Assembly (NCBI GenBank): GCA_040222015.1
Contig: JAVJWO010000188.1
Span: 1-20,049 of the forward strand
Direction of reading: 5' to 3'
DNA: 20,049 bases
Source of the DNA: Coleofasciculus chthonoplastes F2-STO-03
Lineage (GTDB): Bacteria; Cyanobacteriota; Cyanobacteriia; Cyanobacteriales; Coleofasciculaceae
Shown: positions 9,001-18,000 of the stretch, in pieces
Position numbering within the stretch: the stretch's first letter is position 1
Layout: each line of letters begins with the position of its first letter
Program-made: the position numbers

Positions 9001-12000
9001 GAAAAAGCGCTGCAAGACTATCGCACCACATTACCCTTGGCGACAATCCATCACCTGTTTGACATCTATGGTGCTAAGGCGTTGGATATTTTAGCCTTAA
9101 CCGACGAAGAACCGGAATTGGCACAAGCGATTACACCGAACTTGCCGGATATTAAAGCCCAGATTATCTATGCGGTACAGTCGGAATTTGCGCGGACGTT
9201 GGTAGATATTGCCCGTCGCCGGACTAGCCTAGCCATGCATACCAACTATGGCTTTGATATTCTGCCCGTTTTGACGGACATCCTGTCTCGATATGGCGGA
9301 TGGAGTTCGGCAGAGTGCGATCGCCAAGTTGAGGACTATCGCGCTTTCATGGAAGCCAATTGTATTCCCGATTACGCGATGGCGACTCAGAAAGAAACAC
9401 AAACCGTGAGTTAATCACATCAGCAAAGGCAAAAGAACTCATCATCTTCTTTTGCCTTTGACCCTTAACTTGACCAAAATTTATTGAGTTCAACAGATAA
9501 GATCTATGGTGAGCAACCTCTCAAATTCTCAATCCAGCTCATCTCAAGCTGATACAACCTCACAAACCAATCAGGCTCATGCACACTCCCTGCGGAGACC
9601 GGCGCCAGAAGCCACCCTCGCCATTCTCGGCGCTGGTGCTTGGGGTAAAGCGTTGGCAACAATTGCCAGACATAAGAATCATCAGGTTCGATTGTGGTCT
9701 CGCAGCAGCACCGAATCTCTAGAAGAGGTATTAGCGGACATTGATATGCTAGTCTCCGCAATTCCGATGAAAGGGGTGGCGACGACGGCGGCTAAGATTC
9801 AAGAGATTGGTTTGCCGGATTATGTGACAATTATTACCGCCACCAAGGGATTAGACCCAGAGACAACTCGTACCCCTTCTCAAATCTGGGAAGCCGACTT
9901 TCCCAACCATCCGATTGTGGTACTTTCGGGTCCCAATCTCTCCAAAGAAATTGAACAAGAACTCCCCGCCGCCACAGTGGTGTCGAGTACAGATATGGCA
10001 GCCGCTGAGGAAGTGCAAACGGTGTTTTCGTCCAGTCTCTTCCGAGTGTACACCAGTCCAGATCCCCTTGGCACAGAACTCGGAGGAACTCTGAAAAACG
10101 TGATTGCGATCGCGGTTGGGGTTTGTGATGGTCTAAAATTGGGTACCAACGCCAAATCTGCCCTAATTACCCGTGCATTAACTGAAATCCTTCGGGTGGG
10201 GACACACTTAGGCGGACAAACGGAAACCTTCTTCGGATTATCAGGTTTGGGCGATATGCTAGCGACTTGCAGTAGTGTACTCAGCCGTAATTATCGCGTC
10301 GGTTACGGTTTAGCCCAGGGGAAAAAATTGGAGCAAATTCTCGAAGAATTACAAAGTACCGCCGAAGGGGTAAACACAGCCAATGTATTGGTGAAAATTG
10401 CCAATCGCGAGCAGATCCCCATCCCCATCTGTCGGCAAGTTTATCGCCTACTCAACCATAAAATTACGCCCCAAGAGGCTGTAGAAGCATTGATGGAGCG
10501 GGATTTGAAGGCAGAATTTTGCGATTTGTTCTAAACCGTTACCTAAGACATCAGCAAGTCTAGGCACAAAGACTCATATCTAGGCTTGCTGCTTACGTCC
10601 TGCTTCATCTTGGTGATAACACAGATTTCACCGATTGAATCACATTCTGTAGGATTATGCAGACTAGCCAAAAACTCTCCCTTCCTACCATGGGCTGCGG
10701 AACGTGGGCATGGGGAAACCGACTACTCTGGGGGTACGACGAAAGCATGGATGACGAGTTGCAAGCTGTCTTTAATCTGTGTGTAAGCAACGGCGTCACC
10801 TTATTTGATACCGGTGATTCTTATGGCACAGGCAGACTGAATGGACGCAGTGAGCAACTCCTGGGACGATTCTCTAGCGACTATTCTGGTATAAACCAAG
10901 AGAACATTTGCATTGCCACCAAGCTAGCCGCCTATCCCTGGCGATTAACACGCGGCTCAATGGTATCCGCCTGTCAATCCTCTGCGCGACGATTGGGACG
11001 AAATGTTGATTTGGCACAGATGCATTGGTCTACTGCTAATTATGCACCGTGGCAAGAAGAACGGCTTTTGGATGGTTTGGCTGATCTCTACGAAAAGGGA
11101 CTGGTTAAGGGTGTTGGACTGTCTAATTATGGACCCAAGCGACTCCAAGAAATTTATCCTAAGTTTAAAGAGCGAGGGGTTCCGATTGCTACGTTACAAG
11201 TCCAATATTCACTATTGTCTACTTATCCTGTTACCGAATTGGGTATCAAAGACGTTTGTGAGCAACTGGGAATTCAACTGATTGCTTATAGTCCTTTAGC
11301 TTTAGGACTGTTGACTGGAAAGTATTCTGGAAAAGGTTCATTTCCGAAAGGGTTACGCCGTCTGTTATTTAAGCAATTATTACCCGGAATTCAGTCGCTT
11401 TTAGGTTGTTTACGAGAAATCGCTTCTTCCAGAGAGAAAACCATGGCGCAAGTGGCGATTAATTGGTGTATTTGTAAAGGCACTCTGCCTATTCCTGGTG
11501 CAAAGACGATGAAACAGGCACAGGAGAATATTGGTGCGCTGGGATGGCAATTGAGTGCTGGTGAGGTCACTGAATTGGATCAAGTGGCGGCAAGTTTAGA
11601 TAAGGCGATGGTTCAAAACATTTTTCAAACGCGATAACTTCCATAGGTGATTGGGGAAGAGGGAACTCTTAACATAAAATAGAATATCGGTGGGTTACGG
11701 CGGATAATTCATTTAAGGATTATCGCCTGAATTAAGTTCCCGCCTAACCCACCCTACGAGATTGAAAAAATCCCAGCACTCCTGAATCTGGGCGCAAATC
11801 TTGCGCCCAGACAAGAAACTGTATACACTATTCAACTTCCAGCGTTAAATTTGGCATGAGTCGCTGTAAGTTTTTTAACGATTTACCTTGCCAAGGAATA
11901 TTCTGAGAACCTTGTACAATCATTTTAATCGTCTTTTTCTGCCTAACTTTAATCGCAAATTTCGACAACATACTAATCCCCGAACTGTTGAGAAATTGCA

Positions 12001-15000: not shown

Positions 15001-18000
15001 ACAGGCAATAGGCAATAGGCAATTAAACTTCAAAAATTTTTCTTTGTTTAATCACGAGTAAGGTGATATCATCGTAAAGTTGTTGTTCTTGAATATGCTG
15101 GCGTAGGTTATCAATAACGGCTTGCCGAATTTCAGCAGCGGATTGTTGCCAATTCTGACTGAGAATCTGACACAGGCGTTCGATGCCATATTGTATCCCT
15201 TGGGCATTTTCTGCCTCTGGAATCCCATCGGTGTAGAGGACAACAGTATCTCCCGGATTTAACTGGACTTGAAGATGTGCTACGAAATCAGCGATATCAG
15301 CATCTAAACCAATGGGAAACCCTAGATCAATGGTATCAATTCGCTCAATATGACCTCCAGTCCGCACGACAATGATTTCTTCATGTTGTCCGCTCAAATT
15401 TAGGATACCTTTTTGATAGTCCAACAAAGCCAATGTGAGGTTTTTGTCGGAATTCATCCGCTGGACGTTTTGATAAATGGTGCGATTCAGTATATCTAAA
15501 AATTGCTTGGGGTCAGTTTGATTACTTTCTAAGAGGGTGCGAACGGCGGTTTGTACCATTAAGGTTAATACCCCGCTTTCTAAGCCGTGTCCCGTCACAT
15601 CACCAATACTAATTTGGACGCGATCGCGATACGGTAAAATATCATAATAATCCCCACCCACTTCCGTCGCCGGTTCCATAAACCCAGAAATCTCTAAGTC
15701 AGCAATTTGATTCAGTTCTGTCTCTTTAGGTAGCAGCATCTGTTGCAAGCGGCGGGTAACATCAAGTTCAGCACTCAATCGCAGATTTTCTGCCTTGAGA
15801 CGTTGATTGAGCTTAGTAATTTCCTGATTTGCCCGAAATAAATCCGCTTGGGCTTGTTTGCGTTCCGAGATGTCGCGAAATGTACCCGTATAAAAACAAT
15901 CTTGACCGGATTTCGTTTCCACAACCGTTGCTTCTAGGGGAAAGCGAGACCCATCAACGCGACAGCCAACAATCTCATGTCTGCCAACTTTTAATAACCG
16001 TTCCATCCCTATATCAGTATCATCGGCTACGGGTGTTGACCAATCCAATAGCTGATGAATATTCATACCCGTAAATTCGTTGATAGAATACCCAAATATC
16101 TCTTTGGCACTGGGATTAGCGGTGACAATTTTGAGTTGAGGTTTGGTGAAGGTAATAATCGCATCCATTGCGGTTTTGACAATGGCATCGGTGCGGGTTA
16201 ATGCCTCTTCTAAGGCATTCATTACCTGGTTATAACGCTGGGCAATTTGACCGACTTGCGTAAATGGTTCGACAGGAACTCGTAAGCTTAAATCTTGAGT
16301 CTGGGCTTGGGCTTCCATTACCTGAAACAGGTCACAAATCTCAGTTTTGGCGCGATGTTCGGACACATTTAAACCAATCTGTTCCGCCTCAATACTCACC
16401 CGCATTGGGAAAAAACGATTAGTGATGAATAATAGGAGATAAGTTATGCTAAATGCCCAAATACCACAACTAAGAATTCCGATTACCTGCACACCAAGCT
16501 GAATCACTGGACTCAACCCCGTATCCAGCAATTCCGGTTGACCAAACAACGCCACGGCTAATGTTCCCCAAATTCCTCCACCCAGATGCACGGGTATAGC
16601 ATCGACAGCATCATCAATCTGCCACCGTTCCAACCAATTCGACATCAAGGTGGCAATAATACCCCCAATTGCCCCAATAATCACGGATGCGGGAGAGGTG
16701 ACAACATGGCAACAGGCGGTAATCGAGACTAATCCAGCTAAGGAACCATTGATGAGGGATTCGACTTCCGGAAGTTGACACTGATACCAACTCACCATTC
16801 CCGCTGCCATCATTCCGGCAATACCGGCTAGCACGGTATGCACAATAATGCTAGGGACTTGCTCATTTAAAGTCAATGTGCTGCCCCCATTGAACCCCAA
16901 CCAGCCAATCCACAGTAACATGGCACCTAAAACCGACAGGGGTAAATTAGACCCATGGATTTTTCGCGGTGGTTGATGATCCGGAAATCGCCCGGTGCGT
17001 GATCCGATAATCATCAGACTGGCGAGGGATACCCAGCCCCCCAGACTGTGAACGACTGTAGACCCCGCAAAATCAACAAAGCCTAACTGTTCTAGCCACC
17101 CCAGGGATGTGTCTAAATCAATCCCGTTCCACGCCCAATGTCCAAACAGGGGATAAATCAGACCAGACACCAAACTGGCTAAGATTAGGTAAGCCGGAAA
17201 CTTCATCCGTTCAGCTACCGCCCCGGAGACAATCGTGGTAGCGGTGCTGCAAAACATGGCTTGGAACAAAAAGAAAGCCGCCAGTCGGGGTGTAGCTTCA
17301 ACGTGAACGAAGAAATCGCTTGAGCCAATCCACCCCAGCACTGAGGTGCCAAACATAAAGGCATATCCGAACGCCCAAAATAAGGCAATAGATATGCCCA
17401 AGTCAGCTAAGTTTTTAATGGCAACATTGATACTATTTTTCGATCGCGTCAGCCCTGACTCCAGGCACATAAACCCCGGTTGCATCAGGAATACCAAGCC
17501 AGAACAGACGAGGAGCCACAGAATATCAATCACTTATATCTGCCCCTTGTTTTTGGTATACGAATATATATCATCCTTACAAATATGCCCGGTCTAATTC
17601 CAGAACCTTTAGCGCAATTTTAATTAAAGCGGTTTGGTAATCAGATGTTTAGCGGCATCAAGTTCTAAGTTCTGGGCATAAGACAAGGCTTGCTCGTACT
17701 TTTGCTGATTGATATAAGCTTGAGTCAGCAACACCTCCCCTTGCATTCGGACTGAATAGCCTTGATTATCGGGTAATGGTTCATCATAGCTAATCGTTGA
17801 GAGTCGTGCGATCGCGTCTGGGTAAGCGCCAATTTTGCTATATTCGGCGATAATCTTAACTAAAAGCGGGTTGCGGATAGTTTCCAGATATAAATTTTGT
17901 CGTTGTACTGAGGTTGACTGGGAATCCGACAAATTTGTGTCTGGAGAGGAAGGGTAGATTTTGCATCCCATGTAAACAGCTAACCAATCATCAAATACCG

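What a model noticed while it worked through the whole genome (the two positions that open the first line are those of the whole stretch)
11828..17533. Ammonium receptor (sensor Amt) fused to a PP2C phosphatase that heads a SiaABC-like partner-switch operon
g05420 (annotated 'ammonium transporter') is an Amt-linker-PAS-SpoIIE fusion of the ammonium-receptor class, a third output type beside the known kinase and diguanylate-cyclase receptors. It heads an operon with a CHASE-SpoIIE phosphatase, a SiaB-like kinase (slr1658 family) and a STAS-like protein (slr1659 family), giving these orphan families an ammonium input.
Evidence so far: Best PDB matches are the two sensor Amts (Sd-Amt1 416 bits over residues 5-441 including the linker, Ks-Amt5 297) against <=198 for transporters. 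All seven N1/N2 site residues named in PMC11152129 (passages, call 63) are kept: Q18, F21, E25, N41, D44, T100, S103; the genome's two ordinary Amts start MNAGFGMLE instead. PP2C motifs intact. About 40 protein clusters carry Amt+PAS+SpoIIE. slr1658/slr1659 follow the gene in 6 of 15 regions fetched, from several families; slr1658 family hits SiaB kinase at E 1e-4.
(Added by a program. Inside this text positions count along the whole contig: contig position 1 is position 1 of the stretch shown here. "Call 12" and the like, gene names such as g00115 and contig names such as C1 are that model's own, and its searches are not shown. The text may have been shortened before it was handed on; [...] marks where a part breaks off. 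The agent that wrote the report below was given it as the finding of a first reader that could run no searches.)

Follow-up and report, generated by a model that had tools for sequence, protein, structure and literature searches.

The report
Ammonium-sensor phosphatase feeding a phospho-switch
A mat-forming cyanobacterium encodes an ammonium-transporter-like membrane sensor fused to a protein phosphatase, beside a kinase-like protein and a small switch protein that probably control cAMP-making enzymes elsewhere in the genome; the fusion type has been noted before in marine bacteria, but this wiring is untested.

Summary
The four genes are real. The first is an Amt–linker–PAS–PP2C fusion closest to the ammonium receptor Sd-Amt1, with its ammonium-site ligands kept. 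It is not a new output type: Amt–SpoIIE/PPM fusions are in print for SAR11 (PMC2944026, PMC11796062). Five of the seven site residues are also in the genome's ordinary Amts.

The partner-switch reading holds up. The slr1658 and slr1659 models match SiaB-like kinases and SiaC. In 401 sampled cyanobacterial genomes, all 71 with this PP2C subfamily hold slr1658 (72 in all). The pair follows the fusion in 21 of 27 testable loci and in 0 of 51 other sensor-Amt loci, though from few lineages.

A likely output is a coiled-coil stalk motif, found in 58 genomes, 57 of them slr1658-positive. Here it sits on two unlinked adenylate cyclases and a hybrid kinase. A predicted stalk–slr1659 complex passed (0.88, best control 0.57), possibly through likeness to SiaC–SiaD. 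Ammonium is one of six inputs: the genome has six such phosphatases.

Nothing has been assayed. The scan noted this cluster and the stalk before on other DNA.

The parts
15023..17533 (-). 836-aa fusion: sensor-class Amt (5-396), helical HAMP-like linker (about 397-445), PAS (448-560), coiled coil, PP2C/SpoIIE phosphatase (637-829)
   Evidence: Pfam and NCBIfam; best PDB match Sd-Amt1, 416 bits over 5-441; site, gate and PP2C acidic residues invariant in 25 aligned fusions
13090..14955 (-). 621-aa membrane CHASE-PP2C of the same phosphatase subfamily; a second, non-ammonium input. It lies between the fusion and slr1658 in Coleofasciculus loci; in the other loci read, slr1658 follows the fusion directly
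   Evidence: Pfam; 77% identical to the first gene's coiled coil + phosphatase part; same order in L049 and L050; not in this position in L071, L092, L104, L062
12414..12995 (-). slr1658-family protein (193 aa); predicted GHKL-type Ser/Thr kinase with the SiaB/anti-sigma fold
   Evidence: NF052618 288 bits; model pLDDT 87.5; Z 13.0 entry 8ih8 anti-sigma factor, 12.8 SiaB (rmsd 3.3, 150 aligned), 11.5 SpoIIAB, 10.6 RsbW, histidine-kinase domains 7.1 or less; N77, E78, E81, N82 and L156-G157-x-L159 invariant in 56
11828..12172 (-). slr1659-family protein (114 aa); SiaC/STAS-fold switch, predicted phospho-acceptor Ser63
   Evidence: NF047705 164 bits; model pLDDT 92.9; best match SiaC, Z 12.5, rmsd 2.4, 113 of 114 aligned; N62-S63-S64 invariant in 58, like SiaC N67-T68-S69 (PMC8457831)
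14961..15021 (-). Run of degenerate 7-base repeats in the 67-base gap between the two phosphatase genes; a dispersed repeat, not specific to the locus
   Evidence: Seen in the sequence; summed contig depth 25,000-39,000 in that bin against about 150-400 in most other bins
11787..11811 (.). Perfect 11-pair hairpin just after slr1659, between convergent genes; possible end of the unit
   Evidence: Seen in the sequence; not flagged by the terminator scan, which asks for a T run

Best explanation
The first gene is an ammonium-receptor-type input to a four-part phospho-switch that works like Pseudomonas SiaABCD but is built from other families.

1. NH4+ passes the Trp/Ser, Phe and twin-His path into the N1/N2 pocket (residues shown; binding inferred).
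2. The HAMP-like linker, PAS and coiled coil change the activity of the PP2C domain (inferred; direction unknown).
3. This phosphatase, the neighbouring CHASE-PP2C and four unlinked paralogues dephosphorylate slr1659 at Ser63, against the slr1658 kinase (folds and co-occurrence shown; chemistry inferred).
4. Unphosphorylated slr1659 binds a coiled-coil stalk (core DLEILLETTxxHxD) on signalling enzymes (co-occurrence shown; binding modelled; activation inferred from SiaC-SiaD). Here the stalk is on two unlinked adenylate cyclases and one hybrid histidine kinase, so the likeliest output is cAMP. In other cyanobacteria it is on GGDEF or PAS proteins next to the pair.

My odds: the trio is a partner switch, 0.85; the stalk proteins are its targets, 0.65; ammonium tunes the phosphatase, 0.65.
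For: Receptor class. The same Amt-linker-PAS front end also carries histidine kinases (21 of 120 listed) and class III cyclases (17 of 120), as a shuffled sensor module would.

Switch: folds. All 71 of 401 genomes with this PP2C subfamily at E<=1e-45 are among the 72 with slr1658, and 329 have neither, with matching patchy counts inside families (f5 6-7 of 46, f6 9 of 21). The pair follows the fusion in 21 of 27 testable full-length loci and in 0 of 51 other sensor-Amt loci. In metagenome contigs a pair motif lies near 16 of 42 close phosphatases and 1 of 38 distant ones (I set the split after seeing the list; flanks vary).

Output: the stalk profile hits 58 of 401 genomes, 57 of them slr1658-positive; the exception, G313, has slr1659 beside its stalk cyclase. 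The stalk is doubled in GGDEF proteins, as SiaD's SiaC-binding motif is (PMC8457831). Own-genome carriers: C187, C210, C134.

Complex of 2 stalks + 2 slr1659: score 0.88 in three runs, best of 3 controls 0.57. The mark was reached by 116 of 157 solved and 2 of 215 mismatched pairs (counts hold only roughly here). Contacts agree at 98% or more, partner pLDDT 92 or more, and Ser63 touches the stalk's Thr pair.
Against: No assay of any step. The N1/N2 motif also marks true transporters. Five of the seven site residues are in the genome's ordinary Amts, and Leu45 departs from the literal signature.

Synteny is lineage-biased: in the 401 sample the six other linked genomes are all one family, and the seventh has slr1658 about 100 kb away; 6 of 27 loci lack the pair. 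15 of 72 slr1658-positive genomes gave no stalk hit at E<=1e-7. The stalk profile was built mostly from loci near slr1658. No stalk gene lies in the window.

A like complex (SiaC-SiaD) is solved, so the pass may be from memory, and one control scored 0.57. The top fold match of slr1658 is an anti-sigma factor, tied with SiaB. Kin are not independent in any of the counts.
Confidence: 0.55

Rival explanations
1. The switch is real but the Amt part still transports ammonium, or serves mainly as a membrane anchor. The phosphatase is then set by the PAS domain or by transport flux, not by N1/N2 occupancy.
For: All pore residues are kept. The motif cluster holds characterised transporters (PMC11152129). 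The ordinary Amts share five of the seven site residues and N262.
Against: Q18, D44 and Y115, which the ordinary Amts lack, are invariant in the fusions. The closest solved relatives mainly bind rather than transport. The genome has two ordinary Amts. PAS is absent from many Amt-SpoIIE fusions, so it is not needed for the design. No exact GTA-N8-TAC box lies upstream (motif recalled; weak).
Confidence: 0.2
2. Canonical partner switch: slr1658 is an anti-sigma factor, slr1659 its antagonist, and the output is release of a sigma factor. The stalk proteins are bystanders or secondary targets.
For: The slr1658 model matches anti-sigma factors (8ih8 Z 13.0, SpoIIAB 11.5, RsbW 10.6). pgr5 rises about three orders of magnitude in slr1658 mutants (second-hand, PMC6525291). 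Canonical systems exist in cyanobacteria (PMC13712970). 15 slr1658-positive genomes gave no stalk hit.
Against: I saw no sigma factor gene beside the pair in the loci whose ORFs I read (by eye, no sigma-family search). The stalk motif is almost confined to genomes with the pair, and an exact form lies beside it in 8 of 20 fetched loci. slr1659 matches SiaC over 113 residues.
Confidence: 0.15
3. The gene order is an accident of sensor shuffling, and the fused phosphatase acts on another substrate (for example PII or an unrelated STAS protein).
For: 6 of 27 loci lack the pair. The SAR11 fusion has no partner reported (PMC11796062). The genome holds one other weak slr1659-like hit.
Against: 71 of 71 co-occurrence of the phosphatase subfamily with slr1658. 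All 5 of the 6 negative loci whose genomes I searched hold slr1658 elsewhere. 0 of 51 other-output loci have the pair.
Confidence: 0.08

Closest known systems
Sd-Amt1 of Shewanella denitrificans and Ks-Amt5 of Kuenenia (ammonium receptors; PDB 8qj3, 6eu6; PMC11152129, PMC5764959)
   Same: Amt core, N1/N2 ligands, Lys/Tyr switch residues, exit Asn; alignment to Sd-Amt1 runs through the linker
   Different: PP2C output instead of GGDEF or histidine kinase; extra PAS; Leu at the F/T signature position; no assay
SAR11/Pelagibacter Amt-SpoIIE (Amt-GI5; SAR11_0049/0050; PMC2944026, PMC11796062)
   Same: Amt joined through a HAMP-like part to a phosphatase domain; proposed ammonium sensor
   Different: 716 aa with no PAS described and no partner found; reported as exclusive to SAR11 in that marine data set. 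Here cyanobacterial (also Beggiatoa by source name) and wired to slr1658/slr1659. Orthology not tested.
SiaABCD of Pseudomonas aeruginosa (PDB 6kko; PMC7278518, PMC8457831, bioRxiv 10.1101/674879)
   Same: Membrane PP2C, GHKL kinase, small STAS-like switch with N-[ST]-S at the phospho-site, and a cyclase with a coiled-coil stalk, often with a doubled motif
   Different: All parts score far below the Sia family cut-offs; Ser instead of Thr; many phosphatase inputs; outputs unlinked here and adenylate-cyclase or kinase type
Synechocystis slr1657-slr1658-slr1659 (Zer et al. 2018, seen only as cited in PMC7555055 and PMC6525291; PMC10124867; PMC4614683)
   Same: Same two families; Slr1657 is listed as an unknown domain + GGDEF; a computed network groups Slr1657-1660 with Sll0537 (that Sll0537 is Amt3 is recalled)
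   Different: Called a 'putative two-component system gene' with unknown signalling chain; the computed module was read as purine metabolism; no link to a phosphatase or to SiaABC in the passages seen
Canonical cyanobacterial partner switches HcyABCD, HmpUVW, NfsS/NfsR (PMC9127174, PMC13712970)
   Same: Phosphatase, kinase and STAS logic
   Different: Described as RsbU/anti-sigma/antagonist type with sigma or unknown targets; membership of the slr1658/slr1659 families not tested

Membership tests
Ammonium receptors (AmR, sensor Amt) | Amt core with Trp/Ser pair, Phe gate and twin His | tested here: met
   W135, S218, F94, F214, H162, H316 by alignment to Sd-Amt1; invariant or nearly so in 25
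Ammonium receptors (AmR, sensor Amt) | N1/N2 ligands (Sd Q22, E29, N45, D48, T104, S107) and switch K44/Y119, exit N269 | tested here: met
   Q18, E25, N41, D44, T100, S103, K40, Y115, N262. Only Q18, D44 and Y115 set it apart from the genome's ordinary Amts
Ammonium receptors (AmR, sensor Amt) | Literal signature QX6EX15NX2D[F/T]X54-60TX2[S/T] | tested here: not met
   One mismatch, Leu45 (checked by hand); the position is not a ligand in Sd-Amt1; Phe in 22 of 25 fusions. Filed as 'works like', probable relative
Ammonium receptors (AmR, sensor Amt) | HAMP linker to a cytoplasmic transducer | tested here: inconclusive
   Aligns with the region of Sd-Amt1 predicted as HAMP, but no Pfam HAMP hit; transducer present
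Ammonium receptors (AmR, sensor Amt) | Binds rather than transports NH4+, and NH4+ changes output activity | not testable with these tools
   Needs electrophysiology and enzyme assays
PP2C/SpoIIE phosphatases | SpoIIE domain with the metal-binding Asp motifs | tested here: met
   133 bits against cut-off 25; D628, D645, D769, D821, D822 invariant in 25 and 32 sequences; their roles are recalled
SiaABCD | SiaA family phosphatase (NF038263) | tested here: not met
   55.7 and 72 bits against cut-off 700
SiaABCD | SiaB family kinase (NF038262) | tested here: not met
   21.8 bits against cut-off 85; the fold matches SiaB (Z 12.8, rmsd 3.3, 150 aligned), so 'works like' stands
SiaABCD | SiaC family phosphoprotein with Thr68 | tested here: not met
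   PF09345 16.6 bits against 24.5; Ser63 in place of Thr; best fold match is SiaC (Z 12.5, rmsd 2.4, 113 aligned)
SiaABCD | Stalk-bearing diguanylate cyclase in the operon | tested here: not met
   No cyclase in the window; stalk adenylate cyclases and a kinase on other contigs; stalk GGDEF adjacent in relatives
SiaABCD | Kinase and phosphatase act on the switch; phosphorylation blocks stalk binding | not testable with these tools
   Only a predicted complex
slr1658 and slr1659 families (NCBIfam) | Score above the curated cut-offs | tested here: met
   NF052618 288/200, NF047703 257/100, NF047705 164/100
SAR11 Amt-phosphatase (Amt-GI5 type) | Common origin of the fusion | not tested
   No SAR11 sequence fetched and no tree built

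The most novel reading that the evidence does not exclude
slr1658/slr1659, a dedicated PP2C subfamily and a portable coiled-coil docking stalk form a widespread, unrecognised cyanobacterial signalling hub (about 18% of sampled genomes). It merges many sensors and switches adenylate cyclases, diguanylate cyclases and histidine kinases through one phospho-serine. This locus plugs external ammonium into that hub, giving a PII- and NtcA-independent route from ammonium to cAMP. The same model would explain the unexplained Synechocystis slr1658 phenotype through Slr1657.
Probability: 0.4. Interest if true: 0.8.

Novelty: new variant of a known kind. Interest (0 to 1): 0.62.

Why it matters
Both characterised ammonium receptors lack a known downstream pathway (no response regulator identified for Ks-Amt5; role of Sd-Amt1 left open), and the SAR11 phosphatase fusion has no reported substrate. 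Here substrate, opposing kinase and effector can all be named, so the whole chain can be rebuilt from soluble parts. It also offers a mechanism for Synechocystis slr1658, whose signalling chain to pgr5 is stated to be unknown, testable in a laboratory strain. If true, mat-forming cyanobacteria would read external ammonium outside the PII/NtcA circuit.

Tried and rejected
- 'Third output type': rejected on two papers.
- N1/N2 residues as proof of a receptor: rejected as not discriminating.
- Profile search of slr1658 against the PDB gave only E 0.38 or worse; slr1659 gave weak anti-sigma-antagonist hits, best E 0.0019. The links rest on folds.
- Co-transcription: contigs from four RNA libraries cover genes and gaps evenly, and some bridge three genes (11841-14981 in X1, 11825-14981 in X4). 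DNA cannot be excluded, so this shows nothing.
- Promoter and terminator scans were at chance level (15 against 13.6; 7 against 6.7). No exact NtcA-type box upstream; 5 in the window against 2.2 expected, 8 of 100 shuffles reaching 5.
- The metagenome scan picked phosphatase patterns and did not return Amt fusions. It served only as a phosphatase control, so non-cyanobacterial fusion loci were not seen.
- The kinase-switch complex was not predicted.
- No tree was built; residue mapping and list comparisons were done by hand.
- Not-in-print searches. None showed a paper linking slr1658/slr1659 to SiaABC, a stalk motif or an Amt-PP2C.
- Not seen: Zer et al. 2018, Tremblay and Hallenbeck 2009, the domain lists in Fig. 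7B of PMC11152129 (an image; a term search of its two supplements gave no hit), NCBIfam's full family comments and bioRxiv supplements. Any of these may already state part of this.

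
Full report
Observation. The window is a whole 20,049-base contig of a 7.7-Mb, 99.99% complete genome. The first gene's closest named relatives are Coleofasciculus proteins at 93-95% identity. Four minus-strand genes run 17533 to 11828: an 836-aa Amt-PAS-SpoIIE protein, a 621-aa CHASE-SpoIIE protein, an slr1658-family and an slr1659-family protein, the last two above their NCBIfam cut-offs. The fusion is one frame without stops. Full-length matches occur in 29 of the 80 GTDB loci kept, one of them split by a frameshift, so it is not an assembly artefact.

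The sensor. The best solved matches are Sd-Amt1 (416 bits, residues 5-441, through the linker) and Ks-Amt5 (297), against 198 or less for transporters. From that alignment, by hand: Q18, F21, E25, K40, N41, D44, T100, S103, Y115 and N262 correspond to the site, switch and exit residues described in PMC11152129 (I read parts 1-5 of 11: introduction, results, discussion). All are invariant in 25 of 25 aligned fusions. Three cautions apply. The literal signature is missed at Leu45. The paper's motif cluster is 29.6% of 18,924 Amts and includes plant transporters. And this genome's two ordinary Amts keep F21, E25, K40, N41, T100, S103 and N262, differing at Q18, D44 and Y115. The receptor reading therefore rests on closeness to Sd-Amt1, those three residues and the fusion. 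Among the best 120 of 7176 hits, 82 end in SpoIIE, 21 in a histidine kinase and 17 in a class III cyclase, so the front end is a shuffled sensor module.

Prior art on the fusion. Pelagibacter AMT2.2 and AMT2.3 were noted to contain the SpoIIE Pfam in 2010 (PMC2944026, one passage). A 716-aa SAR11 Amt-HAMP-phosphatase was modelled and proposed as an ammonium sensor in 2025, with no partner found (PMC11796062, section 11). The phosphatase output is thus not new. Its cyanobacterial form and its partners were not found in my ten paper searches.

The switch. The slr1658 model (pLDDT 87.5) matches anti-sigma-type kinases: entry 8ih8 Z 13.0 (128 aligned), SiaB Z 12.8 (150 aligned, rmsd 3.3), SpoIIAB 11.5 and RsbW 10.6. 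Histidine-kinase domains score 7.1 or less. The slr1659 model (pLDDT 92.9) matches SiaC best (Z 12.5, rmsd 2.4, 113 of 114 residues), with an anti-sigma antagonist within 1 Z. N62-S63-S64 is invariant in 58 homologues and parallels SiaC N67-T68-S69 (PMC8457831, passages; PMC7278518, whole text; bioRxiv 10.1101/674879, passages). All parts fall far below the Sia family cut-offs, so this works like SiaABC and is not SiaABC.

Linkage of phosphatase and pair. In one sample of 401 cyanobacterial genomes, slr1658 occurs in 72 and this phosphatase subfamily (E<=1e-45) in 71; comparing the lists, all 71 are among the 72. Eight genomes gave a full-length fusion match. slr1658 follows it in this genome and in six others, all six from one family; in the seventh it lies about 100 kb away, beside another phosphatase of the subfamily and a stalk gene. 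Of the 29 full-length loci from GTDB, two end at the contig edge and were dropped. Exact degenerate motifs of both partners follow the gene in 21 of the other 27, and in 0 of the 51 remaining sensor-Amt loci, some with short flanks. Seven of the 21 are Coleofasciculus and eight are Baaleninema, Phormidium, Geitlerinema or Oscillatoria, so independent cases are few. Five of the six negative loci were checked genome-wide, and all five genomes hold slr1658 elsewhere. In metagenome contigs, a partner motif lies near 16 of 42 close phosphatases and 1 of 38 distant ones (split set after seeing the list).

Ammonium is one input of several. This genome has six phosphatases of the subfamily: the two here, and receiver, CHASE3/HAMP, Cache/HAMP and CHASE2 forms on other contigs. 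A second slr1658/slr1659 pair stands without a phosphatase.

The output. An earlier scan note (e1-3231302) mentioned an adenylate cyclase beside such a cluster, so I read the genes downstream. In L071 a PAS-adenylate cyclase and in L104 a GGDEF protein follow slr1659; both start with a coiled coil holding the motif DLEILLETTxxHxD, twice in L104. A 23-row profile hit 58 of the 401 genomes, 57 of them slr1658-positive. The exception has slr1659 directly after its stalk cyclase. Fifteen slr1658-positive genomes gave no hit. The exact motif lay beside slr1658 in 8 of 20 fetched loci, and a looser, doubled form on a GGDEF gene upstream of the pair in G023, the arrangement expected of Slr1657, listed as unknown domain + GGDEF (PMC10124867, passage). 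In this genome the stalk is on three unlinked proteins: a 470-aa PAS-cyclase (C187), an 878-aa CHASE2-like-PAS-cyclase (C210, by eye) and a 1208-aa hybrid kinase (C134, by eye). ATP specificity of the cyclases is read from recalled motifs. SiaD is activated by SiaC binding two repeated motifs on its stalk.

The predicted complex. Two C187 stalks with two copies of the window's slr1659 scored 0.88 in three runs, against a best control of 0.57. The mark was reached by 116 of 157 solved and 2 of 215 mismatched pairs, counts that hold only roughly for this job. Contacts agreed at 98% or more, and partner pLDDT was 92 or more. The interface uses the motif itself (stalk 26-46) and invariant slr1659 residues (60-74, 93-105), with Ser63 touching the stalk's Thr pair, where phosphate would be expected to clash as in SiaC. 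Because SiaC-SiaD is solved, the pass may reflect likeness; it supports binding and does not show it. A later look-up showed that the scan had already noted this repeat in another genome (e1-3033139); that is not independent support.

Mechanism. Shown: domains, residues, folds, co-occurrence and gene order. Inferred: NH4+ binding, control of the phosphatase (sign unknown; Sd-Amt1 is activated, while Ks-Amt5 rises at low and falls at higher ammonium), phosphorylation of Ser63 and control of the cyclases. Co-transcription is not shown: RNA-library contigs cover genes and gaps evenly, and a gap of about 240 bases precedes slr1659. The rivals are a transporting or anchoring Amt (0.2), a sigma-factor output (0.15) and an unrelated substrate (0.08).

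What is known of the families. slr1658 mutants recover poorly from iron limitation and overexpress pgr5 by an unknown chain (PMC7555055 and PMC6525291, passages; the original paper not seen). A computed network grouped Slr1657-1660 with Sll0537 and Sll0536 but read it as purine metabolism (PMC4614683, section 8). HcyABCD and NfsS/NfsR are described as canonical switches (passages). PMC10433425 and PMC12918730 gave no passage on phosphatase fusions.

Verdict. A real, probably ammonium-responsive phosphatase input to a SiaABCD-like hub built from the slr1658/slr1659 families. The fusion type is known; the wiring and the stalk output were not found in print by my searches. New variant of a known kind; interest 0.62.

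Noticed in passing
L157:4095-5672 (G023): A 525-aa sensor-class Amt, 65% identical to the window's Amt part, ends after a double helical linker like that of the PAS-less Amt-SpoIIE fusions, with no enzyme domain, directly after a potassium-channel-like gene. It resembles what I recall of Synechocystis Sll0537 (Amt3) and Sll0536; such proteins may be output-less receptors.
   Followed up: partly
L007:8295-9315 (G000:C41): A second slr1658/slr1659 pair with no phosphatase or stalk gene beside it; its kinase has GLGLL where the window's copy has RLGFL.
   Followed up: partly
L102:4947-7497 and L127: In the Arthrospira platensis PCC 7345 assembly the Amt-PAS-SpoIIE gene is split by a frameshift within PAS, and the genome's slr1658 hit covers only profile positions 40-185 with a stop listed: decay or assembly error.
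   Followed up: no
window:17606-18011: Related strains in three of four laid runs carry about 1.5 kb of other sequence in place of the 115-aa ORF upstream of the fusion, so that ORF is a variable insert and not part of the unit.
   Followed up: no
L143 (G257:C1:4945037-4946336): The one slr1658-positive genome without the phosphatase subfamily has two slr1658 genes in tandem and no stalk hit.
   Followed up: no
many genomes of genus g5: The same phosphatase domain ends frames of about 1750-1900 aa, often several per genome, so very large sensor proteins also feed the hub; their domains were not examined.
   Followed up: no
L135:2816-3664 (G125): A stalk protein with two motifs and a PAS domain but no enzyme domain by Pfam, directly after the slr1659-like gene; it may be a sink or adaptor.
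   Followed up: no
window:6111-10534: Three co-oriented genes that look like glucosylglycerol-phosphate synthase, glycerol-3-phosphate oxidase and NAD(P)H glycerol-3-phosphate dehydrogenase, an osmolyte cluster (from translations and recall; not searched).
   Followed up: no
window:1-130 and 19910-20049: Both contig ends are short tandem repeats (7-base and 21-base periods by their translations), the likely cause of the assembly breaks.
   Followed up: no
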